A stretch of DNA of 64,000 bases from an uncultured Pelagibacteraceae bacterium. GTDB lineage: Bacteria > Pseudomonadota > Alphaproteobacteria > Pelagibacterales > Pelagibacteraceae. The DNA lies in contig CACOTF010000001.1 in NCBI GenBank assembly GCA_902630065.1, positions 133,854 through 197,853 on the forward strand, given 5' to 3'. This document shows, in pieces, positions 51,152-61,563 of the stretch; within the stretch, counting starts at the first letter, position 1, and the number at the start of each line of letters is the position of its first letter. The notes under the pieces were generated by a model. That model searched no databases, was not told the origin of the DNA, and worked only from the letters and a program-made list of their open reading frames with translations. A program made the position numbers and the translations under genes.

Positions 51152-51577
51152 TTATATAGTTTTGAATAATCTATCGTATTCGTTTTTAATACATTTATTA
51201 GAGATATAATAAATTTTATTTTGAGAGACTAATTTAGCTGCATTTTCGTTATGAATTCCTAATTGCAACCATAATACATTTGCTCCAATTTCTATTGTTT
51301 GTTTTGCTATTTCCTCAGCCTCTTCACTGGGTCTAAAAACATTAACAATTCCAACATGATCTTTTATATCAGTTAGTTTTTTATAAACTGGTTCTCCATG
51401 TATAATTTTATTATCTGTTACTGGATTAACAGGAAAAACTTTGTAACCTGTATTTCTTAAATATTTCATTATTATATTGGAAGTTTTTTTTGAGTCTGGG
51501 CTTGCTCCAACAATTGCTATCGTCCGATAACTTAAATAAAGTTCTTTTATCTTTTCGTCTACTAGTGTTGTGTCCAT
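51152..51577 (-). CDS. CoA-binding protein (YccU-like), copy 2
   Basis: IAIVGAS, PVNP, VFR, WLQLG and NKCI motifs. Confidence 0.9.
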   Translation of the reverse strand: MDTTLVDEKIKELYLSYRTIAIVGASPDSKKTSNIIMKYLRNTGYKVFPVNPVTDNKIIHGEPVYKKLTDIKDHVGIVNVFRPSEEAEEIAKQTIEIGANVLWLQLGIHNENAAKLVSQNKIYYISNKCIKNEYDRLFKTI

Positions 51578-51585
51578 AATTTAAT

Positions 51586-52035
51586 TTAAATTTTTAGATC
51601 TAGACGCGGTTTCCAAAATGGTCTGAAGAGTTCAATTTTTGGACATCTATTCATAACTACTTTTAAACCTGCATCTTCAGCAATTTTTGCTGCATCATGA
51701 TTAATTACACCAATTTGTCCCCATAATACTTTTGCTCCAATTGATATTGCCTCTTCAGCAATACCATAGAGATCCTCGGATTTTCTAAATACTTCGACCA
51801 TATCAACAGGTCTATCTATTGCCGATAAATTTGGATAAACTTTTAAATTTCTAATTTCCTTTACACCTGGTTTAGGATTTACAGGTATCATGTCATAGCC
51901 AGTTTCATGCAAAACTCGTAATACACCATAACTAAATTTAGTTTTGTCTGGACTAGCGCCAACCATTGCAATTGTCTTAACTGAACTTAGAATATCTTTT
52001 AAATATTCAGCGCTATAAGGTTCATTGTGGTTCAT
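51586..52035 (-). CDS. CoA-binding protein (YccU-like), copy 1
   Basis: IAMVGAS, PVNP, VFR, WGQIG and MNRCPKIE motifs. Confidence 0.9.
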   Translation of the reverse strand: MNHNEPYSAEYLKDILSSVKTIAMVGASPDKTKFSYGVLRVLHETGYDMIPVNPKPGVKEIRNLKVYPNLSAIDRPVDMVEVFRKSEDLYGIAEEAISIGAKVLWGQIGVINHDAAKIAEDAGLKVVMNRCPKIELFRPFWKPRLDLKI

Positions 52036-52402
52036 CTTTATTTTTTTCTTCCTTTTTACTTGCGATATCTGCTTTTAATTCGTGTGGCTCTAAAGGATCA
52101 AGGAAAGGATTTCGGTATAATTTATCATGACTTTCAACTCCTATCTCTATTGTGCAATCTGTTTTTGCTTTAGCAACACATAAAATAATATATCCATCAT
52201 TTATTTGTCTATTATTTAAAGCAACTTGAGAACGTTGATCCACTTCACCATTAATCAGTTTAGCTGCACATGTAATACATCCTCCATACTGACATCCGTA
52301 TGGAAGATCGACACCTTGATCTCTTAATTCATTTAATAAAGGTTTTTTTCCACTTACTTCAAATGCACTGTTATTTCTGTTTGAGATTGTAATTTTTGTC
52401 AT
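52022..52402 (-). CDS. Plant-type [2Fe-2S] ferredoxin with C-terminal extension
   Basis: LPYGCQYGGCITC...ILCVA; ATG at 52402 overlaps the SBP56 stop (ATGA). Confidence 0.88.
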   Translation of the reverse strand: MTKITISNRNNSAFEVSGKKPLLNELRDQGVDLPYGCQYGGCITCAAKLINGEVDQRSQVALNNRQINDGYIILCVAKAKTDCTIEIGVESHDKLYRNPFLDPLEPHELKADIASKKEEKNKDEPQ

Positions 52403-53751
52403 AGCCAGATGTCGCTTGTGCAATCTCCACCTGGATATCTACTTTCATGGCACCTACTAGGTCCATTTGGCTCTTTGCCAAAATCAACAATAAAATCTTT
52501 ATTAATTTTCATTCCTCCATTTTCAACATCACAATCAATCATAATCATTGCTCCACCCTGTTTTCTAATTTCAGGATAAAATTGATTATCCCAAGTAGAA
52601 AATAATGATGTTGTTACATACATTCTTTTGCCATCTAAAGATAATTGATACATTTGAGGTCCACCAGCAATTTTAACACCATTTACTTCTGGAGCCTTTC
52701 CTAACAATCCACCCATCCAAACTTGACCAGTTAATTTTGGTTTATGCGGATCTGAAATATCGTATTGCCTCATATCCCCATGAAGCCAATTATTTATATA
52801 TAGATATTTATCATCCATTGAAACTAATATCGCTGACATAACCCCAGGTACAGGGATTGGCCAGTCAGGATGTGGTTCATTTTCAACATCGATTATTTTT
52901 TCCCATTCCCATTTTCCTTCTTTTGATTTCCAAAAATGAATTACATTTGCACTTAGCGCTGCACCACAAAATCCATGACTACTGTCAGGATTATGCATAA
53001 ATTTTACTTCTAATGGTATTAAACCATCCTCACCTAAATACATTGTTTGAACTGGCTCTTTTTTTTTAAAATCCCAAACATGAAGTCGTCTACCATATTT
53101 CAAATGACCAACTTCCTCTAAATCAAATCCAGGCATAAAAGTATTAGGGGCAGCCCATTCAGAACTAACCATCACATTATGTCTTGGTTGGTACCAGAAG
53201 TCATAACTAAAAGGTATGTCTCCCATTGAATTTTCCCATCTACCTACAATTTCAAAATCTTTGTTTAAATGTAAATATCCTCCTGGAGCTTCTCCTCTTG
53301 CATCTCCTAGAAAAGAAATGATAATTTCAGAACCTAGGCAATGAACTGTATGCGGTCCTGATAAATTAGTTTTTTTCTTTATTTCAGATCCATCTACTAC
53401 TTTATGTATTTTTGGAGCTCTAGGATCGGATGCAGTATCAACAACATAAATATTATTTGATCTAACACCTGGAACTAATAAATATTTTCTGCTCATTTTT
53501 GAGTCGCCATGACAAGAAGAACATGCATTCCATCCCATATGATGCAATTCATCACCAATACCTGGCATTTCAAGTCTATGAATTACTTTAGAATAAGTAG
53601 GGCTTTGAGGATCAACATCGACGGTTGCTAAGTAGTCTGGTTTTTGTATTCCTGTCCCTGTGTAAATCGCTATAGTATATAAAAGCTTTTCTTTTGGTGC
53701 TTTTATTGCTTCTGCAGGACTAGCATATCCGGGACCACAACATCCATCCAT
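52399..53751 (-). CDS. SBP56/SELENBP1-like protein, putative methanethiol oxidase
   Basis: CCGPGYASP, DELHHMGWNACSSC, PHTVHC, YDFWYQP, GGPQM.QLSLDG and YPGGDCTSDIW; no signal peptide. Confidence 0.9.
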   Translation of the reverse strand: MDGCCGPGYASPAEAIKAPKEKLLYTIAIYTGTGIQKPDYLATVDVDPQSPTYSKVIHRLEMPGIGDELHHMGWNACSSCHGDSKMSRKYLLVPGVRSNNIYVVDTASDPRAPKIHKVVDGSEIKKKTNLSGPHTVHCLGSEIIISFLGDARGEAPGGYLHLNKDFEIVGRWENSMGDIPFSYDFWYQPRHNVMVSSEWAAPNTFMPGFDLEEVGHLKYGRRLHVWDFKKKEPVQTMYLGEDGLIPLEVKFMHNPDSSHGFCGAALSANVIHFWKSKEGKWEWEKIIDVENEPHPDWPIPVPGVMSAILVSMDDKYLYINNWLHGDMRQYDISDPHKPKLTGQVWMGGLLGKAPEVNGVKIAGGPQMYQLSLDGKRMYVTTSLFSTWDNQFYPEIRKQGGAMIMIDCDVENGGMKINKDFIVDFGKEPNGPSRCHESRYPGGDCTSDIWL

Positions 53752-53811: not shown

Positions 53812-54585
53812 TTATTTGTTTTTCCAACTTGGATTTCTTTTTTCTATAAATGCACTTATACCCTCTTTAGCATCATAAGATGACATATTAAGTGTCATCA
53901 TCTTACTTGTATAATCATAAGCTTTGTTAAGAGGCATTTCTAATTGTTTATAAAAACCCTTTTTACCTATTTTGATAGTTAAATTTGATTTTGAAGATAT
54001 TTTTTTTGCGATATCTAAAATTTTTTTATTTAAAGTTTTTGGACTGTAATGATCATTAATTAATCCGATTTCCTTTGCATATTTTGCACTAATTGGATCA
54101 CCGGTAAGTAGCATTTCCATCATTCTTTTTCTGCTAATTTTTCGGCTGACAGCTACCATTGGTGTACTACAAAATAATCCAATTTTTACTCCAGGTGTAG
54201 CAAAAGTTGCTGAGTTTGTGCTATATGCAAGATCACAACTGGCAGCTAATTGACATCCAGCAGCATAAGCAGCACCATGAACTTTTGCTATTACTGGTTT
54301 GTTGCCTTCTACTATTTGCATCATAAGTTTTGAACAAAGTTTAAACAATTTTAAATGATTAGATCTATTTTTTATACCTCTTACTTCTTTTAAATTATGA
54401 CCTGCACTAAATCCTTTGCCAGCTCCTTCTAAAATAATAACTCTTGTATCTTTGTCATTATCTAATTTTTTAAATGCTTTTAATAAAGATGAGAGAGTTT
54501 TGTAGGATAAGGAATTATAAGTTTTTGGATCATTTATTAAAACTCTCTTAACCCCTTGTGTAACTTTATTTATTTTTACAATCAC
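53812..54585 (-). CDS. Enoyl-CoA hydratase/isomerase family (ECHDC3-like)
   Basis: FSAGHNL, AAGCQL and TPGVKIGLFCSTP motifs; GTG start. Confidence 0.9.
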   Translation of the reverse strand: MIVKINKVTQGVKRVLINDPKTYNSLSYKTLSSLLKAFKKLDNDKDTRVIILEGAGKGFSAGHNLKEVRGIKNRSNHLKLFKLCSKLMMQIVEGNKPVIAKVHGAAYAAGCQLAASCDLAYSTNSATFATPGVKIGLFCSTPMVAVSRKISRKRMMEMLLTGDPISAKYAKEIGLINDHYSPKTLNKKILDIAKKISSKSNLTIKIGKKGFYKQLEMPLNKAYDYTSKMMTLNMSSYDAKEGISAFIEKRNPSWKNK

Positions 54586-55382: not shown

Positions 55383-56558
55383 TTAAATTAAATTACCAGC
55401 AACCCACTTATGAAAATGATGAGTTGGATTATCCATTTTTGGAGAAAAATTACCACCGTTATAAGCTGGAGAGTTTCTACCTATTTGCATACTTTGAATT
55501 ATGTCTACATCCTCTTTTTGGATATCTTCCCATTGTTTGTGATTTTTTTGTCTTAAAGTTTTATACTTTGTTGAAGTTGCCGCTTCTTCTCCAACATAAT
55601 AAATTTCCATATGTTCTATTGTAAACTCATGATTGATTGGTTCTAACCAATAAGCATAATAATGATCTTTATGAATTCCTAACATTACATTTGGAAATAA
55701 TGCTACATACTCAGCTATATTTTCTTTATCGTTTGGCCAATTAGGAAAGCAAGGAAACTTTTCTTTTCCTTCAAATCTTGGATTGTAGACCACTGTTCCT
55801 TGTCCGGCGAAACGATTTGGAAGACCTTGAATATGATAGTGATCTTCTAACTTTGAATAAGAATTTAATCCTGGATGAACCCAAGGTAGATGATAGCTTT
55901 CACAATAATTTTCAATTGCAAATTTCCAATTACATTTTGCATCTAATTTAAAATAACCATAGTCATTTGCATGATAAATTAATTCTCTATCTTTCAATGG
56001 CCAAAATTTTTCCCATCTTTCACTTAAAGGACTAATGTAATCCTCAAATGAAATTTCATTATTGTTAATATTAATCATAATAAGATCTAACCAAATATAT
56101 GATCTTATCTCTTTTAAATTACTTTTTGATTTATCAAATTCAGGTGTTTGATGAATATTCATACCTCCTATATGAGGTGTGGCAACTAAATTTCCTTCTA
56201 AGTTATATGACCATGAATGATATGAGCATCTCATAACATTTCGAATTTTGCCAGCTTCTTTAACTAATTTAACTCCTCTATGACTACAAATATTATGAAA
56301 AACTTTTATTTCTTTATTTTTTGTTCTAACAATAAGTAAGGGTATCCCAAGTAAATCAATTGGTTTCACATCACCTTCGTCAGGAATAGAGCTTCCAACT
56401 CCTATTACGATCCACTTATCTTCAAATAATTTTTTTCTTTCAATTAAAGTATATTCTTTATTGATGTAACATTCATTTGGTAAACCATGAGCTTCGGTAA
56501 TTGGTTTAGATACAATATCTAACTTTTGTTTATCTATAATATTGTAAATTTCTGACAT
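55383..56558 (-). CDS. Rieske oxygenase alpha subunit (choline monooxygenase/betaine demethylase-like)
   Basis: CSHRG...CSYH Rieske ligands; ENYCESYHLPWVH and ED mononuclear Fe motifs. Confidence 0.88.
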   Translation of the reverse strand: MSEIYNIIDKQKLDIVSKPITEAHGLPNECYINKEYTLIERKKLFEDKWIVIGVGSSIPDEGDVKPIDLLGIPLLIVRTKNKEIKVFHNICSHRGVKLVKEAGKIRNVMRCSYHSWSYNLEGNLVATPHIGGMNIHQTPEFDKSKSNLKEIRSYIWLDLIMININNNEISFEDYISPLSERWEKFWPLKDRELIYHANDYGYFKLDAKCNWKFAIENYCESYHLPWVHPGLNSYSKLEDHYHIQGLPNRFAGQGTVVYNPRFEGKEKFPCFPNWPNDKENIAEYVALFPNVMLGIHKDHYYAYWLEPINHEFTIEHMEIYYVGEEAATSTKYKTLRQKNHKQWEDIQKEDVDIIQSMQIGRNSPAYNGGNFSPKMDNPTHHFHKWVAGNLI

Positions 56559-57199: not shown

Positions 57200-58162
57200 T
57201 TACTTCACTTTTAATAAAAAAACTCCAAAATAATTTTTTTTATCTGCAAAATATTTTAAGACTTTAAAGCCTGATTTATTAACTAATTTAATAAAGTTAT
57301 TTTTTGAATATTTATGAGAATTTTCAGTATGAATGCTTTCATCTTTAGTAAATTTAATATTCTTTTTATTAATTTTTAACGTGAAATTTTTTTTCGAGAT
57401 AAGATGCATTTCAATTCTATTTTTTTTTAAATTGTAGAATGCTTTATGATCAAAATTTTTAGTTTGAAAATTTGAATTACAAATTTTGTTTACTACATTT
57501 AATATATTTTTATTAAATTTTGCTGTAACTCCCAATTTATCATTATAAGCATTTTCAAGAGTTTTCTTATTTTTGATCAAATCAACCCCAATTACTAAAT
57601 AAGAATTTTTGCCTATGATTTTTGAAAAATTTTTTAATATTTTTTTTGCATTTTTGGGTAAATAATTTCCTATTGTAGATCCTGGAAAAAAACTGACTAT
57701 TTTTTTTTTGTTTTTTAAAATTTTATTTAATCTATTGGTCTGACTAAAGTCAGCACATATTGCTGTTACTTTTAAATCTGAGAATTTTTTTGCAATTATT
57801 GATGCATTTTCAAACAAATATTCCTTGCTAATATCTATAGGAATGTATTCTTTGGGTTCACTTAATGATTTTATAAATTTATTTATTTTTTTATTTGAGC
57901 CACTACCAAATTCTACAATTGTTGAATTAATTGGTAATTTCTTTCTTATCTCTTTTTGTAAGTTACCTAGTATTTCTAACTCTTTATTTGTTGGGTAATA
58001 TTCTTTAAGATTTGTAATTTTATTAAATAACTTTGAACCTTTTTCATCATAAAAATATTTAGGTAATAAATATTTTTGTTTTTTATTTAATAATCCTTGT
58101 AAGATTAATTTTTTATCGTCTTGAATTTGATTGTTTATGTTTATTAATTTTAAATTAGTCAC
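57200..58162 (-). CDS. egtD: L-histidine N-alpha-trimethyltransferase
   Basis: PKYFYD..GS.LF, EYYPT, EFGSG, GSTIGN, AYND..GVTA.FN and TENSHKY motifs. Confidence 0.92.
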   Translation of the reverse strand: MTNLKLININNQIQDDKKLILQGLLNKKQKYLLPKYFYDEKGSKLFNKITNLKEYYPTNKELEILGNLQKEIRKKLPINSTIVEFGSGSNKKINKFIKSLSEPKEYIPIDISKEYLFENASIIAKKFSDLKVTAICADFSQTNRLNKILKNKKKIVSFFPGSTIGNYLPKNAKKILKNFSKIIGKNSYLVIGVDLIKNKKTLENAYNDKLGVTAKFNKNILNVVNKICNSNFQTKNFDHKAFYNLKKNRIEMHLISKKNFTLKINKKNIKFTKDESIHTENSHKYSKNNFIKLVNKSGFKVLKYFADKKNYFGVFLLKVK

Positions 58163-59379
58163 TAGATGTCATCAGCTAGTCTGACACCACAAAACTGCCA
58201 AGTATCACTTGGGTAAAAGAAATTTCTATAAGATGCTCTGACATGATTAATAGATGTGGAATGTGAGCCACCTTTTAAGACAAACTGATTACACATGAAC
58301 TTATTATTATATTCTCCTAAATTTCCTTCATAAGGTTTATATTTTTTGTAAGGTGTATAATTACTACTTGTCCAAGCCCATAAATTTCCATAAACATCGT
58401 TTGCTTTTTCTTCTACTTCATGAAAAATTTTATTTTCTATAAAATTACCTTTTTTCTCAGATTGTTTTAAGAAATACTCTAGTTCAAATTCAGTTGGTAA
58501 TCTTTTGTTTTTGTATCTTGCAAATGCATCTGCTTCATAGAAACTTATATGAGAAACTGGCTTTTCATTATCAATTTTTTTTACACCGTTTAATGTAAAA
58601 TAATTATTATTATCTATCCAATACATTGGTTTTTGTAATTTGTTATTATTTACATAATCCCATCCATCAGATAACCAATACTCATGATTTTTATATCCTC
58701 CTTCATTAATAAATTCTTTCCACTCTCCATTGGTAACAAATGAATATATTTTAAAAGGATCTAATTGTGTTTCTGATGCTGGTAATTCGTTATCGTAACA
58801 AAAAATATCTTCGTCGTTTCCATATTTAAATTTTTTACTAGTTTCTAATGTCAATTCATTTTTTTCTTTAGCAGTTGGTTTATCATCATTAGAATTATAA
58901 GTCGGCATCAATGGATTGTTGTAAAAAATATTTTTAATATCCATTAACATTAATTCTTGATGCTGTTGTTCGTGATTTAAACCTAGTTCAACTAAAAAAG
59001 ATGTCCTGTTATTTTTTGTCCTTTTTAAAAAATCAATAATATTTTCAGTTACATAATGTCTATATTTTACAACATCTTTTAAGATGGGTCTATTTAGTGA
59101 ACCTCTCTTATTTCGAGGATTGTATTCACCTACAGAATTGTAATATGAATTAAATATATAATTATAATCTTTGTTGAAAGGTTTGTAACTTTCATCCAAT
59201 TCAGACAAGATGAATTTTTCGAAGAACCATGTGGTGTGACCAAGATGCCACTTAAGAGGACTAACATTTTTGCTGGGCTGTATGACCATATCCTCAGCCT
59301 CTAAGTTTTCGCACAGGGATAGAGTTTGTTGTCTTGTTTTGGAGAATAATTCTGTAATTTGAGATGATTTGTTTTCCAT
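58162..59379 (-). CDS. egtB: Ergothioneine sulfoxide synthase
   Basis: SPLKWHLGHTTWFFE, FNSYY, HEQQHQE, RLPTE, EYN.KFM and RASYRNFF motifs. Confidence 0.92.
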   Translation of the reverse strand: MENKSSQITELFSKTRQQTLSLCENLEAEDMVIQPSKNVSPLKWHLGHTTWFFEKFILSELDESYKPFNKDYNYIFNSYYNSVGEYNPRNKRGSLNRPILKDVVKYRHYVTENIIDFLKRTKNNRTSFLVELGLNHEQQHQELMLMDIKNIFYNNPLMPTYNSNDDKPTAKEKNELTLETSKKFKYGNDEDIFCYDNELPASETQLDPFKIYSFVTNGEWKEFINEGGYKNHEYWLSDGWDYVNNNKLQKPMYWIDNNNYFTLNGVKKIDNEKPVSHISFYEADAFARYKNKRLPTEFELEYFLKQSEKKGNFIENKIFHEVEEKANDVYGNLWAWTSSNYTPYKKYKPYEGNLGEYNNKFMCNQFVLKGGSHSTSINHVRASYRNFFYPSDTWQFCGVRLADDI

Positions 59380-59483: not shown

Positions 59484-60212
59484 ATGAATTTTTCTTTAGA
59501 AATAGGTCCTAAAACTGATTTAAGTACATTGCCAAAGGTAAAAGATGTTTATGTTACAATGCTACCTGGAGGTGATTATAAAGAGACTGCTCAACAATCT
59601 GGAGAGTTAGTTAAAGAGGGATTTAATCCAGTTCCTCACTTCCCAGCAAGGTCAATAAATGATGAAAATCAGCTTAAAGATTATGTTTCTAGATGTAAAG
59701 ATTTGGGTGTTAAGCAGGTCTTGGTGATAGGTGGAAGTCGTGACCCGATCGGAAAATTTGATAGCTCATATCAAATGTTAGAGACAGGATTTTTTGATGG
59801 TATCAAGATTGGAATTGCTGGACATCCAGAGGGGAGTCCTGATATATCCGACTCTGATTTAGAAAAAGCTATGATAGATAAAAAGCCTTATGCTGATTAT
59901 ATAGTTACACAGTGGCTAATGGATACTCAGCCTATTATAGATTTTATCTTAAAACAAACAATACCAGTTCATGTTGGAATAACTGGGCCAATGAAAATAT
60001 CTAGCTTAATTAAATTTGCTAATATTGTAGGGGCAAAAAATTCCATTAACTTTCTTAAATCTAATTTTAGTAAGGCATTAGATTTATTGAAACCTAAAGA
60101 CCCTAATGATTTAATTGGGAAAGTTAAATCGCATACTGATTATTTCCACATTTATACATTCGGCGGCTTGAAGGAAACTAACAAGTGGTTGAAGGAGAAT
60201 AACTATGTCTAA
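59484..60212 (+). CDS. metF: Short methylenetetrahydrofolate reductase
   Basis: PVPHFPAR, AGHPEG, VTQ and HIYTFGG motifs. Confidence 0.82.
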   Translation: MNFSLEIGPKTDLSTLPKVKDVYVTMLPGGDYKETAQQSGELVKEGFNPVPHFPARSINDENQLKDYVSRCKDLGVKQVLVIGGSRDPIGKFDSSYQMLETGFFDGIKIGIAGHPEGSPDISDSDLEKAMIDKKPYADYIVTQWLMDTQPIIDFILKQTIPVHVGITGPMKISSLIKFANIVGAKNSINFLKSNFSKALDLLKPKDPNDLIGKVKSHTDYFHIYTFGGLKETNKWLKENNYV

Positions 60213-61563
60213 TGAATTTGACTATAGTAAACTAAGACATACAACATCAGTAGATCAGTCTGATAGAAAAGTACCATACAATTTAAGACAAAGCGGACCT
60301 ACTAAAGTTGAGATGCTAATATCAACAAGAGTAAGGAAGTCTCCATACTGGCATTTATCAATGAAAGCAGGATGTTGGAGAGCAACTGTATATAACAGAA
60401 TTTACCATCCAAGAGGTTATGTTAAACCTGAAGATGGTGGTGCAATGGTTGAGTACGAAGCAATTAAAAACCATGTAACAATGTGGAATGTTGCAGTTGA
60501 AAGACAAATACAAGTTAAAGGACCAGATGCAGAAAAATTTGTTGATTATGTAATTACAAGAGATGCTACAAAAATCTCTCCAATGAGAGCTAGATACGTA
60601 ATTTTGTGTAATGCTTATGGAGGAGTGTTAAATGATCCTATACTATTAAGAATTTCTAAAGATGAATTTTGGTTTAGTTTATCTGATAGTGATATTGGAT
60701 TATATTTACAAGGAGTTAACGCAGATGAAAGGTTTAATGTTCAGATTAATGAAATAGATGCATGTCCAGTCCAAATACAAGGTCCAAAATCAAAAGCATT
60801 AATGAAAGACCTTTGTGGAGATCAAGTTGATTTTGATAATATGCCTTTTTATGGTTTGGCATCTGCAAAAGTTGGTGGAAGAAGTTGTATTATTTCACAA
60901 TCTGGATTTTCTGGAGAAGCTGGTTATGAAATATATTTAAGGGAAGCCACTTTATATGCTGAAGATATGTGGAATACAGTTTTAAAAGCTGGTAAAAAAC
61001 ACAATCTCATGGTCATTGCTCCTGCTCATCATAGAAGAATTCAAGCAGGAATTCTTTCATGGGGACAAGATATGGATAACGAGCATAACCCATTTCAGTG
61101 TAATTTAGGTTATCAAGTTTCATTATCTGGTAAAGGAGAATGGAATAAAACAAGTGATTATGTTGGCAAAAAAGCATTAGAAAAAATGAAAGCTGATATA
61201 AAAGCAGGCCATAAACCTTATAAACTTCAATTAGTAGGATTGGAGTTAGGTGGAAAACCTATTGAGGAATATGCGCCAGACTTTTGGTTAATCTCTGATG
61301 AAAATGGAGGAGAGCCTGTAGGTTTTATAACATCTCCATGGTATCACCCAGAAAAAAAACAAAATATAGCAATGGGTTACGTGCCATTTGATGGGACTCT
61401 TAACGCTAATGGTTTTCCTAAAGGTAAAGTTGGATCAAAGTTTAAAGTTCATTTACCAGAAAAATATTCTGAAAAACCTGGTGAACCTGTAAATGCAGTT
61501 GTAGTAGACATTCCATTCACAGAATCTTACAACGCAAATACAAGAGAGGTTGTAAGCGGATAA
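60205..61563 (+). CDS. GcvT/DmdA-like THF-dependent demethylase/aminomethyltransferase
   Basis: RVRKSPY, WNVAVERQI, LNDPILL, QIQGP and SGFSGEAGYEI; overlaps the metF end. Confidence 0.85.
   Translation: MSNEFDYSKLRHTTSVDQSDRKVPYNLRQSGPTKVEMLISTRVRKSPYWHLSMKAGCWRATVYNRIYHPRGYVKPEDGGAMVEYEAIKNHVTMWNVAVERQIQVKGPDAEKFVDYVITRDATKISPMRARYVILCNAYGGVLNDPILLRISKDEFWFSLSDSDIGLYLQGVNADERFNVQINEIDACPVQIQGPKSKALMKDLCGDQVDFDNMPFYGLASAKVGGRSCIISQSGFSGEAGYEIYLREATLYAEDMWNTVLKAGKKHNLMVIAPAHHRRIQAGILSWGQDMDNEHNPFQCNLGYQVSLSGKGEWNKTSDYVGKKALEKMKADIKAGHKPYKLQLVGLELGGKPIEEYAPDFWLISDENGGEPVGFITSPWYHPEKKQNIAMGYVPFDGTLNANGFPKGKVGSKFKVHLPEKYSEKPGEPVNAVVVDIPFTESYNANTREVVSG

What the first reader, a model, noticed from the sequence alone, without database searches (positions are those of the whole stretch)
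51152..53751. Cytoplasmic, eukaryote-like SELENBP1/methanethiol oxidase coupled to a ferredoxin and two CoA-binding proteins
Seen: an SBP56 gene with no signal peptide and termini resembling animal/plant SELENBP1 (GPGYASP...; YPGGDC.SDIW). It overlaps a [2Fe-2S] ferredoxin gene (ATGA), followed by two YccU-like genes; no mauG or sco is present. Known: SELENBP1 and periplasmic bacterial MtoX oxidise methanethiol to formaldehyde, H2S and H2O2; MtoX clusters carry MauG/SCO; SAR11 release methanethiol from DMSP and need reduced sulfur. Inference: a different, intracellular methanethiol-handling module, possibly ferredoxin-dependent for maturation or turnover.
Basis: partly seen in the sequence, partly recalled or inferred. 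Interest (0 to 1): 0.8.

Follow-up and report, generated by a model that had tools for sequence, protein, structure and literature searches.

The report
Methanethiol oxidase with private ferredoxin cassette
A SAR11 ocean bacterium carries a known, human-SELENBP1-like copper enzyme that destroys the sulfur gas methanethiol, acquired as a three-gene block with its own small iron-sulfur protein and a coenzyme-A-binding protein; I found no paper that describes this partnership, and the enzyme has so far been assayed without these partners.

Summary
A leaderless SBP56 gene (52399-53751, minus strand) overlaps a plant-type [2Fe-2S] ferredoxin gene by ATGA and is followed by two PF13380 CoA-binding genes. 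No mauG or sco was found in the window or the assembly.

The enzyme itself is not new. It carries every motif and copper ligand of 'cluster 1' RdMTO of Roseobacter denitrificans, a bacterial SELENBP1 orthologue shown to oxidise methanethiol in vitro without partners.

The new part is the linkage. SBP56-ferredoxin-CoA-binding protein is a fixed unit in all 83 genome loci examined, from SAR11, SAR116, roseobacters, Gammaproteobacteria and Acidimicrobiia, and in most metagenome loci. In 400 Pseudomonadota genomes, both partner subfamilies occur only where this SBP56 class occurs. Deeper relatives and Haloferax keep only the ferredoxin.

Findings specific to this window:
- The second CoA-binding gene and the enoyl-CoA hydratase are resident SAR11 genes.
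- The three-gene cassette sits between them.
- It is present in about 17% of species of one SAR11 genus.

The partners' roles are inferred, not shown. This scan found the same trio earlier on other genomes, and I found no paper describing it.

The parts
52399..53751 (-). SBP56 / SELENBP1-like class A (RdMTO-type) cytoplasmic methanethiol oxidase, 450 aa; first gene of the cassette
   Evidence: PF05694 at 692 bits. Motifs GWNACS (73), HTVHC (134), GGDCT (441) and CSSC (77). His70/71, His134/137, Asp184 and Glu248 are invariant. No signal peptide. 429 bits to PDB 2ECE.
52022..52402 (-). Dedicated plant-type [2Fe-2S] ferredoxin, 126 aa, with conserved C-terminal extension GVESHDKLYRNPFLDPLxPHELKADIA; second gene of the cassette
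   Evidence: Fer2 at 49.7 bits. ATGA overlap with SBP56. Its subfamily profile scores 234-238 bits only in genomes with class A SBP56; the next best score is 63 bits. Alignment A2.
51586..52035 (-). Cassette-borne CoA-binding protein (PF13380, YccU-like subfamily with conserved tail NRCPKIELFRPFWKPRLDLKI), 149 aa; third gene of the cassette
   Evidence: PF13380 at 126.7 bits. Its profile scores 297-302 bits only in genomes with class A SBP56; the next best scores are 200 and then 161 or less. 70-100% identical in other lineages. 135 bits to PDB 2DUW.
51152..51577 (-). Resident YccU-like CoA-binding gene of the genus; not part of the cassette
   Evidence: Present at 42-58% identity in 26 of 36 genus genomes, including ones without SBP56. 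In SBP56-less loci it lies directly next to ECH.
53812..54585 (-). Resident enoyl-CoA hydratase (NCBIfam PRK08139, ECHDC3-like), upstream flank of the insertion site
   Evidence: NF006008 at 339 bits, above its cut-off of 313. Adjacent to CoA2 in SBP56-less SAR11 genomes. Closest PDB entries are 3MYB and human ECHDC3 2VX2. The same NCBIfam family follows the cassette on the Phaeobacter plasmid.

Best explanation
The SBP56 gene encodes a cytoplasmic, copper-dependent methanethiol (short alkyl thiol) oxidase of the RdMTO/SELENBP1 type. It is the first gene of a three-gene cassette: oxidase, a dedicated plant-type [2Fe-2S] ferredoxin, and a dedicated CoA-binding protein. The genes overlap or abut and are inherited as one block. 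In this SAR11 lineage the block lies between a resident enoyl-CoA hydratase gene and a resident YccU-like gene.

The organism makes methanethiol from DMSP, since it has two canonical dmdA genes. The cassette most likely converts that methanethiol inside the cell into formaldehyde plus sulfide or sulfane sulfur.

The remaining steps are inferred, not shown:
- The ferredoxin docks on the oxidase through its conserved ...LYxNPF extension. It exchanges electrons with the copper/cysteine site, most likely keeping it reduced or preventing release of H2O2 in the cytoplasm.
- The CoA-binding protein is a later add-on that handles the thiol or persulfide product. In roseobacters it is followed by rhodanese and a persulfide-dioxygenase-like protein.
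For: Enzyme identity:
- Pfam SBP56 at 692 bits.
- All three cluster-1 cysteine motifs and the six proposed copper ligands are present and invariant.
- The cysteine spacing 77/138/444 matches RdMTO's 82/143/448 after a 5-residue N-terminal offset. Class B matches RlMTO's 76/140/456 exactly.
- RdMTO activity has been shown in vitro (PMC10936201, PMC13603461).

Unit character:
- The ferredoxin follows SBP56 in 80 of 80 genome loci, and CoA1 follows in 79 of 80; the exception is cut by a contig end. These loci come from SAR11, SAR116, Rhodobacteraceae, Granulosicoccaceae, Spiribacter, Acidimicrobiales/Ilumatobacter and Geminicoccaceae, and their flanks differ.
- All 3 class A loci in a 400-genome sample have both partners. 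None of the 23 class B or 5 class C loci does.
- The ferredoxin and CoA-binding subfamily profiles score high only in the 4 genomes that hold class A.
- In metagenome loci the ferredoxin follows directly in 63 of 70 with room, and 3 more have a swapped order. The CoA-binding gene follows in 47 of 64.
- Annotated records agree. Phaeobacter inhibens conjugative plasmid pP30_b reads IclR | SBP-2Fe2S-CoA-binding-rhodanese-MBL-ECH-acyl-CoA synthetase. Haloferax mediterranei pHME322 and a Paracoccus plasmid have the SBP-2Fe2S pair.

Context:
- MtoX-type loci carry SCO1 and MauG instead.
- The MBL protein matches the dioxygenase half of the sulfur transferase/dioxygenase Blh.
- The genome has two dmdA genes above the family cut-off.

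Expression:
- 14 marine metatranscriptome runs from 6 studies hold the stretch. Their contigs cover all genes and bridge the SBP56/Fdx, Fdx/CoA1 and CoA1/CoA2 junctions.
- In Rhodobacteraceae HTCC2255, the selenium-binding and CoA-binding genes, two gene numbers apart, show the same expression shift (PMC10203303).
Against: - RdMTO and human SELENBP1 are active in vitro with copper alone, so the partners are not essential for catalysis (PMC10936201, PMC13603461).
- No assay, complex or structure involves the ferredoxin or the CoA-binding protein. The direction of electron flow is unknown.
- No ferredoxin reductase recurs in the neighbourhoods.
- 3 or 4 of 70 metagenome loci show no adjacent ferredoxin.
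- Eukaryotic SELENBP1 works without such an operon partner.
- Contigs from RNA libraries cannot prove a single transcript and may contain DNA.
- The enzyme's products are disputed in the literature: H2S plus H2O2, or sulfane sulfur.
Confidence: 0.7

Rival explanations
1. The ferredoxin, and perhaps the CoA-binding protein, are maturation or repair factors rather than turnover partners. They would be the cytoplasmic counterpart of SCO1/MauG in MtoX clusters. Possible roles are reducing Cu(II) for loading, reducing the CSSC disulfide, or removing the Cys-S-S-CH3 adduct seen on the C-terminal cysteine.
For: MtoX clusters carry maturation genes at the same position (PMC5739008). Recombinant RdMTO is active without the partners, though only when copper is supplied (PMC13603461). 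A Cys448-S-S-CH3 adduct was observed. No reductase gene is conserved nearby.
Against: Expression of RdMTO in E. coli gives active enzyme with no dedicated factor. Very high conservation of the ferredoxin, including a specific extension, and translational coupling fit a stoichiometric partner at least as well.
Confidence: 0.2
2. In vivo the trio acts mainly on a substrate other than methanethiol, such as another thiol, a persulfide, sulfide or a selenium compound. Methanethiol oxidation would then be a side activity of the isolated enzyme.
For: RdMTO and SELENBP1 accept other alkyl thiols. The family was named for selenium binding. Neighbours include a CoA-binding protein, rhodanese, and DmdA-like and acyl-CoA synthetase genes that fall below the DmdA and DmdB cut-offs. 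One deep locus lies next to methionine-salvage genes.
Against: The only demonstrated activity of class A is methanethiol/alkyl thiol oxidation. The host has canonical dmdA genes. Formaldehyde-detoxifying class III ADH genes lie near some loci (and a Zn-ADH).
Confidence: 0.1
3. The adjacency carries no functional meaning; the genes merely travel together.
For: The genes move as a block. One copy sits on a conjugative plasmid.
Against: Both partner subfamilies are found only with class A SBP56 in 400 genomes. The pair persists from bacteria to haloarchaea while the flanks change. The start and stop codons overlap.
Confidence: 0.02

Closest known systems
RdMTO of Roseobacter denitrificans ('cluster 1' Rhodobacteraceae methanethiol oxidases; Cao et al. 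2024, PMC10936201; Schlemminger et al. 2026, PMC13603461)
   Same: Same class. It is leaderless, has the N-terminal CC pair, the GWNACS/CSSC, HTVHC and GGDC(T/S) motifs, the same proposed copper ligands and the same cysteine spacing. Roseobacter-lineage proteins are 85-90% identical to the window protein.
   Different: RdMTO was studied as a single protein. Neither paper mentions a ferredoxin or an operon. Here the gene is one of a fixed trio. I could not fetch the R. denitrificans locus itself.
Human SELENBP1 (methanethiol oxidase)
   Same: Cytoplasmic and copper-dependent. The literature gives about 53% identity to RdMTO and near-identical termini. In my quick tree the two eukaryotic sequences join class A in a clade with SH-aLRT 94 that excludes class B and MtoX.
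   Different: No operon partner is known in eukaryotes. The tree is a quick one with long eukaryotic branches and only two eukaryotic sequences.
MtoX, the periplasmic methanethiol oxidase of Hyphomicrobium VS and Ruegeria pomeroyi (Eyice et al. 2018, PMC5739008)
   Same: Same Pfam family and the same overall reaction.
   Different: Only 26-29% identical. It has a signal peptide and a TCQSPYM motif, and SCO1/SenC and MauG genes lie downstream. The window protein scores 162 against the equivalog cut-off of 650.
RlMTO-type / Sulfolobus tokodaii 2ECE-type leaderless SBP56 (class B here)
   Same: Leaderless, with the same three cysteine motifs. RlMTO degrades methanethiol in vitro.
   Different: About 40% identical and lacks the N-terminal CC pair. 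None of 23 loci has the ferredoxin or the CoA-binding gene.
Stand-alone CoA-binding proteins of the YccU family (PDB 2DUW, PH1109 2D59, TT1466 1IUK)
   Same: Same PF13380 fold family.
   Different: The cassette copy forms a distinct subfamily with a conserved RPFWKPRLDLKI tail, found only beside class A SBP56. The family as a whole has no established function.

Membership tests
SBP56 / selenium-binding protein family (PF05694) | Full-length match to the family profile above the gathering score | tested here: met
   692.4 bits against a cut-off of 34, covering profile positions 2-453 of 453.
Class A / 'cluster 1' RdMTO-type methanethiol oxidase | [quoted passage not shown] | tested here: met
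   Found at residues 73, 134 and 441. The motifs are defined in PMC10936201.
Class A / 'cluster 1' RdMTO-type methanethiol oxidase | Proposed copper ligands (RdMTO His75/76, His139/142, Asp189, Glu253) | tested here: met
   Window His70/71, His134/137, Asp184 and Glu248 are invariant in alignment A1. The correspondence rests on a constant +5 numbering offset, not on a direct alignment to RdMTO, whose sequence I did not hold.
Class A / 'cluster 1' RdMTO-type methanethiol oxidase | No export signal (cytoplasmic) | tested here: met
   No hydrophobic or twin-arginine N-terminus, and only 5 codons are open upstream of the start.
Class A / 'cluster 1' RdMTO-type methanethiol oxidase | Copper-dependent methanethiol oxidation | not testable with these tools
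   Shown only for RdMTO and SELENBP1 in the literature.
MtoX (NCBIfam NF052453 equivalog) | Score above the equivalog cut-off | tested here: not met
   162 bits against a cut-off of 650.
MtoX (NCBIfam NF052453 equivalog) | Signal peptide, and SCO1/SenC plus MauG genes alongside | tested here: not met
   No leader. No PF02630 or PF03150 in the neighbours or the assembly. Genuine MtoX-type loci in the sample have both.
Plant-type [2Fe-2S] ferredoxin | Fer2 domain with CX4CX2C...C ligands | tested here: met
   PF00111 at 49.7 bits, with Cys37/42/45/75. The best PDB matches are cyanobacterial and plant ferredoxins. TIGR02008 fdx_plant scores 74.4, just under its cut-off of 81.15.
YccU-like CoA-binding proteins (PF13380) | Full-length CoA_binding_2 domain | tested here: met
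   126.7 bits for CoA1 and 115.8 bits for CoA2. CoA binding itself was not tested.

The most novel reading that the evidence does not exclude
In cells, the SELENBP1-type methanethiol oxidase is not a stand-alone H2O2-forming oxidase. It is the catalytic part of a ferredoxin-coupled system. The private [2Fe-2S] protein feeds or takes electrons at the copper/cysteine site, so that no peroxide is released in the cytoplasm. Where present, the CoA-binding protein passes the sulfur on as a CoA-linked persulfide to rhodanese and persulfide dioxygenase. This would explain the conflicting product stoichiometries reported for the isolated enzyme.
Probability: 0.25. Interest if true: 0.8.

Novelty: new variant of a known kind. 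Interest (0 to 1): 0.6.

Why it matters
Methanethiol is a major intermediate of marine DMSP turnover. SELENBP1-type oxidases are used as marker genes for its removal, and loss of the human orthologue causes disease.

Published assays use the enzyme alone and disagree on its products: H2S plus H2O2, or sulfane sulfur. A ferredoxin that occurs only with this enzyme class, from SAR11 to haloarchaea, points to a missing physiological partner and gives a direct experiment.

For SAR11 there is a second point. The cassette is accessory: 48 of 287 species genomes of one genus have it, and none of 113 genomes of the order's other genera searched. Strains should therefore differ in whether DMSP-derived methanethiol is released or oxidised.

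Tried and rejected
- The look-up of encoding contigs and complex prediction were closed, so no complex prediction was made.
- The promoter and terminator scan gave no more sites than shuffled sequence, so operon ends are not defined.
- The 'longer forms' P0002 and P0062 are an over-extended N-terminus and a chimera, not fusions.
- The single 275-aa Fdx-CoA-binding ORF in SAG locus L042 arises in a poly-A run. It is probably a homopolymer error and is not used as evidence.
- ECH as the methanethiol-releasing DmdD: the nearest solved structures are 3MYB and human ECHDC3, and DmdD is not among hits at E<=1e-25. That link stays speculative.
- The window's GcvT-like gene (60205-61563) scores 239 against the DmdA cut-off of 410, so it is not dmdA.
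- Base composition gives no sign of recent transfer. GC3 of the cassette genes is 0.13-0.19, against 0.14-0.23 for the flanks.
- RNA-library contigs bridge the gene junctions but cannot show one transcript or the strand.
- The ferredoxin tail PLxPxELK is present in nearly all loci with the CoA-binding gene and in none of 14 without it. Those 14 form one deep branch, and a swapped-order clade has the CoA-binding gene without the tail, so this is only a hint.
- Full-text searches for selenium-binding protein plus ferredoxin plus CoA-binding found no paper that describes the trio.
Full report
**What is there.** The window has about 30% G+C. It belongs to a Pelagibacteraceae (SAR11) single-cell-type genome of 963 kb that is 67.7% complete. 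On the minus strand lies an unbroken run of genes:
- EgtB-like and EgtD-like genes
- a methyltransferase
- a Rieske oxygenase
- a P-loop kinase-like gene
- orf135
- an enoyl-CoA hydratase (ECH, 53812-54585)
- SBP56 (52399-53751)
- a [2Fe-2S] ferredoxin (52022-52402)
- CoA-binding protein 1 (CoA1, 51586-52035)
- CoA-binding protein 2 (CoA2, 51152-51577)
- a DUF4864 gene
- dimethylglycine dehydrogenase, etfB, etfA and ETF-QO

The ferredoxin's ATG overlaps the SBP56 stop codon as ATGA. CoA1 overlaps the ferredoxin's end by 14 nt, and CoA2 follows 8 nt later. SBP56 has a good ribosome-binding site and no signal peptide. No MauG or SCO1/SenC gene is in the neighbourhood or in the assembly.

**What the enzyme is.** The protein matches Pfam SBP56 end to end at 692 bits. 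It scores only 162 bits against NCBI's MtoX equivalog, whose cut-off is 650.

The literature already describes this type. Cao et al. 2024 split Rhodobacteraceae methanethiol oxidases into two clusters:
[quoted passage not shown] Its examples are RdMTO and RlMTO.
- Cluster 2 is the MtoX type, with TCQSPYM.

They showed that the cluster 1 enzymes degrade methanethiol. Schlemminger et al. 2026 showed three things for RdMTO:
- It is about 53% identical to human SELENBP1.
- It is strictly copper-dependent.
- It forms H2S, H2O2 and formaldehyde.

The window protein has all three motifs, the CSSC motif, the N-terminal cysteine pair and all six proposed copper ligands. All of these are invariant across relatives.

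**Three classes of SBP56.** In 400 sampled Pseudomonadota genomes the family falls into three classes:
- Class A is the window type (84-89% identical, leaderless, N-terminal CCGPGY).
- Class B is about 40% identical and leaderless, with a 2ECE-like N-terminus.
- Class C is 26-29% identical, with a signal peptide and ADETCQSPYM, which is MtoX.

Cysteine positions place RdMTO in class A and RlMTO in class B. A quick maximum-likelihood tree puts a nematode and a sea-urchin sequence with class A (SH-aLRT 94), apart from class B, a haloarchaeal sequence and MtoX. 'Eukaryote-like' is therefore fair. The tree is provisional and the eukaryotic branches are long.

**The linkage.** Among the 80 genome loci most similar to the window protein (85-100% identity), the ferredoxin follows SBP56 in all 80. 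CoA1 follows in 79; the remaining contig ends too early. These loci come from SAR11, SAR116, many Rhodobacteraceae, Granulosicoccaceae, Spiribacter, Geminicoccaceae, Hyphomicrobiales, Hellea and Acidimicrobiales/Ilumatobacter.

The partners are themselves strongly conserved: the ferredoxin at 63-100% and CoA1 at 70-100%. Both carry signature C-terminal extensions. The flanks differ between lineages.

In the 400-genome sample, all 3 class A loci have both partners. None of the 23 class B or 5 class C loci does. The MtoX-type loci carry SCO1 and MauG instead, as published.

Profiles of the two partner subfamilies were searched against the same 400 genomes.

| Profile | Score in the 4 class A genomes | Next best scores |
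|---|---|---|
| Ferredoxin | 234-238 bits | 63 bits |
| CoA-binding protein | 297-302 bits | 200, then 161 or less |

Both partners are thus private to class A.

A second set of 80 metagenome loci was centred on more distant class A members:
- The ferredoxin lies directly downstream in 63 of 70 loci with room, and 3 more have the order SBP56-CoA-Fdx.
- The CoA-binding gene is present in 47 of 64.
- All loci lacking the CoA-binding gene have an SBP56 that is 70% or less identical to the window's.

Annotated public records show the same pattern:
- Phaeobacter inhibens conjugative plasmid pP30_b reads IclR | selenium-binding protein, 2Fe-2S protein, CoA-binding protein, rhodanese, MBL-fold protein, enoyl-CoA hydratase, acyl-CoA synthetase.
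- Haloferax mediterranei pHME322 and a Paracoccus plasmid carry the SBP-2Fe2S pair without the CoA-binding gene.

The ferredoxin extension ...LYxNPF is shared by all these ferredoxins. In Haloferax it is altered to ...LVSNPW. The further PLxPxELK tail goes with the presence of the CoA-binding gene.

**What is specific to this window.** CoA2 is not part of the unit. A 42-58% identical YccU-like gene is present in 26 of 36 genomes of the genus, including complete genomes without SBP56. In those genomes the locus reads orf135-ECH-CoA2-(BT1)-(flavodoxin-like)-DUF4864-DMGDH-etfBA-ETFQO.

SBP56-Fdx-CoA1 is therefore a block of about 2.2 kb lying between two resident genes. This explains the 'two CoA-binding proteins'.

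The cassette is accessory:
- It is in 5 of 36 genus genomes in one draw.
- It is in 48 of 287 genus genomes in a larger draw.
- It is in none of 68 genomes from other genera of the family, and none of 45 from the sister family.

Its GC3 equals that of the flanks, so there is no sign of recent arrival.

**Context.** The genome has two dmdA genes above the family cut-off, at 572 and 530 bits. It can therefore make methanethiol from DMSP.

In roseobacters, SAR116 and Gammaproteobacteria the cassette often lies beside these genes:
- a divergent IclR regulator
- a DmdA-like gene (354 bits, below the cut-off of 410)
- a rhodanese
- an MBL-fold protein matching the dioxygenase half of the sulfur transferase/dioxygenase Blh
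- an ECH of the same NCBIfam family as the window's (PRK08139)
- an acyl-CoA synthetase

Formaldehyde-handling alcohol dehydrogenases and, once, methionine-salvage genes lie near deeper members. All of this fits a methylated-sulfur pathway that yields sulfide or persulfide and formaldehyde.

**Expression.** Fourteen marine metatranscriptome runs from six studies hold 30-43% of the stretch's sampled words. Contigs from four runs in four studies cover every gene. They bridge the ECH/SBP56, SBP56/Fdx, Fdx/CoA1 and CoA1/CoA2 junctions. This is consistent with transcription, possibly as one unit. However, contigs cannot show a single transcript, and RNA libraries may carry DNA.

A published study lists the selenium-binding and CoA-binding genes of Rhodobacteraceae HTCC2255, two gene numbers apart, with the same shift in expression.

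**How it most likely works.**
- Shown by sequence and comparison: the oxidase's class, the leaderless form, the private and block-inherited partners, and the insertion in SAR11.
- Taken from the literature: copper-dependent oxidation of methanethiol by this class.
- Inferred: the ferredoxin is a physical redox partner of the oxidase, and the CoA-binding protein is a later addition linked to thiol or persulfide handling.

The ferredoxin is closest to low-potential plant-type ferredoxins. That favours a role as electron donor to the copper/cysteine site. The direction is open, and no reductase recurs nearby. A maturation or repair role is the main rival.

The isolated enzyme is active without partners. 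They are therefore not required for catalysis as such. They may set the in vivo stoichiometry, on which the two published studies disagree.

**Known or new.** The enzyme is known. I found no paper describing the fixed trio or pair. This scan has reported the same trio on several other genomes. I re-derived it independently and checked the lead about haloarchaea.

**Limits.** No complex prediction could be made.

Noticed in passing
window 57200-59379 (minus strand): An adjacent EgtD-like histidine methyltransferase (PF10017, 325 bits) and an EgtB-like DinB_2 + FGE-sulfatase protein. This is an ergothioneine/ovothiol-type thiol-histidine biosynthesis pair in a SAR11 genome. It is conserved in the close relatives' loci.
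   Followed up: partly
window 52040: Contigs from all four metatranscriptome runs carry one extra T here (an A-run on the coding strand). This would end the ferredoxin at ...KKEEKK and remove its 14-nt overlap with CoA1. The window's version is shared by several SAGs, so it may be a natural homopolymer variant.
   Followed up: partly
L042:8335-9159: In one SAR11 SAG the ferredoxin and CoA-binding genes read as a single 275-aa ORF. The join lies in a poly-A run, so it is probably a homopolymer error rather than a real fusion.
   Followed up: partly
window 53812-54585; L210:7606-8406: The resident SAR11 ECH beside the insertion site and the ECH that follows the cassette on the Phaeobacter plasmid belong to the same NCBIfam family (PRK08139; human ECHDC3-like). 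In SBP56-less SAR11 genomes this ECH sits directly next to a YccU-like gene. An ECH-YccU functional pair may exist in its own right.
   Followed up: partly
L210:6309-7598 (Phaeobacter inhibens plasmid pP30_b): A rhodanese plus an MBL-fold protein that matches residues 131-422 of the bifunctional sulfur transferase/dioxygenase Blh. This looks like a split Blh directly after the cassette, on a conjugative plasmid.
   Followed up: partly
protein P0077: A protein labelled 'Methanethiol oxidase [Nymphon striatum]' (a sea spider) is 80% identical to the window protein in alignment A1 and matches the bacterial class A proteins closely. It probably comes from bacterial DNA in that assembly.
   Followed up: no
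window 60205-61563 (plus strand): A GcvT-family gene whose best match is DMSP demethylase, but far below the cut-off (239 against 410). It is a DmdA paralogue of unknown substrate. Two further such paralogues and two true dmdA genes lie elsewhere in the genome.
   Followed up: partly
window 55383-56558 (minus strand): A Rieske-type oxygenase alpha subunit, weakly GbcA-like at 117 bits, with no reductase or ferredoxin gene beside it. It is also present in SAR11 genomes without the cassette, so it does not depend on the cassette's ferredoxin.
   Followed up: no
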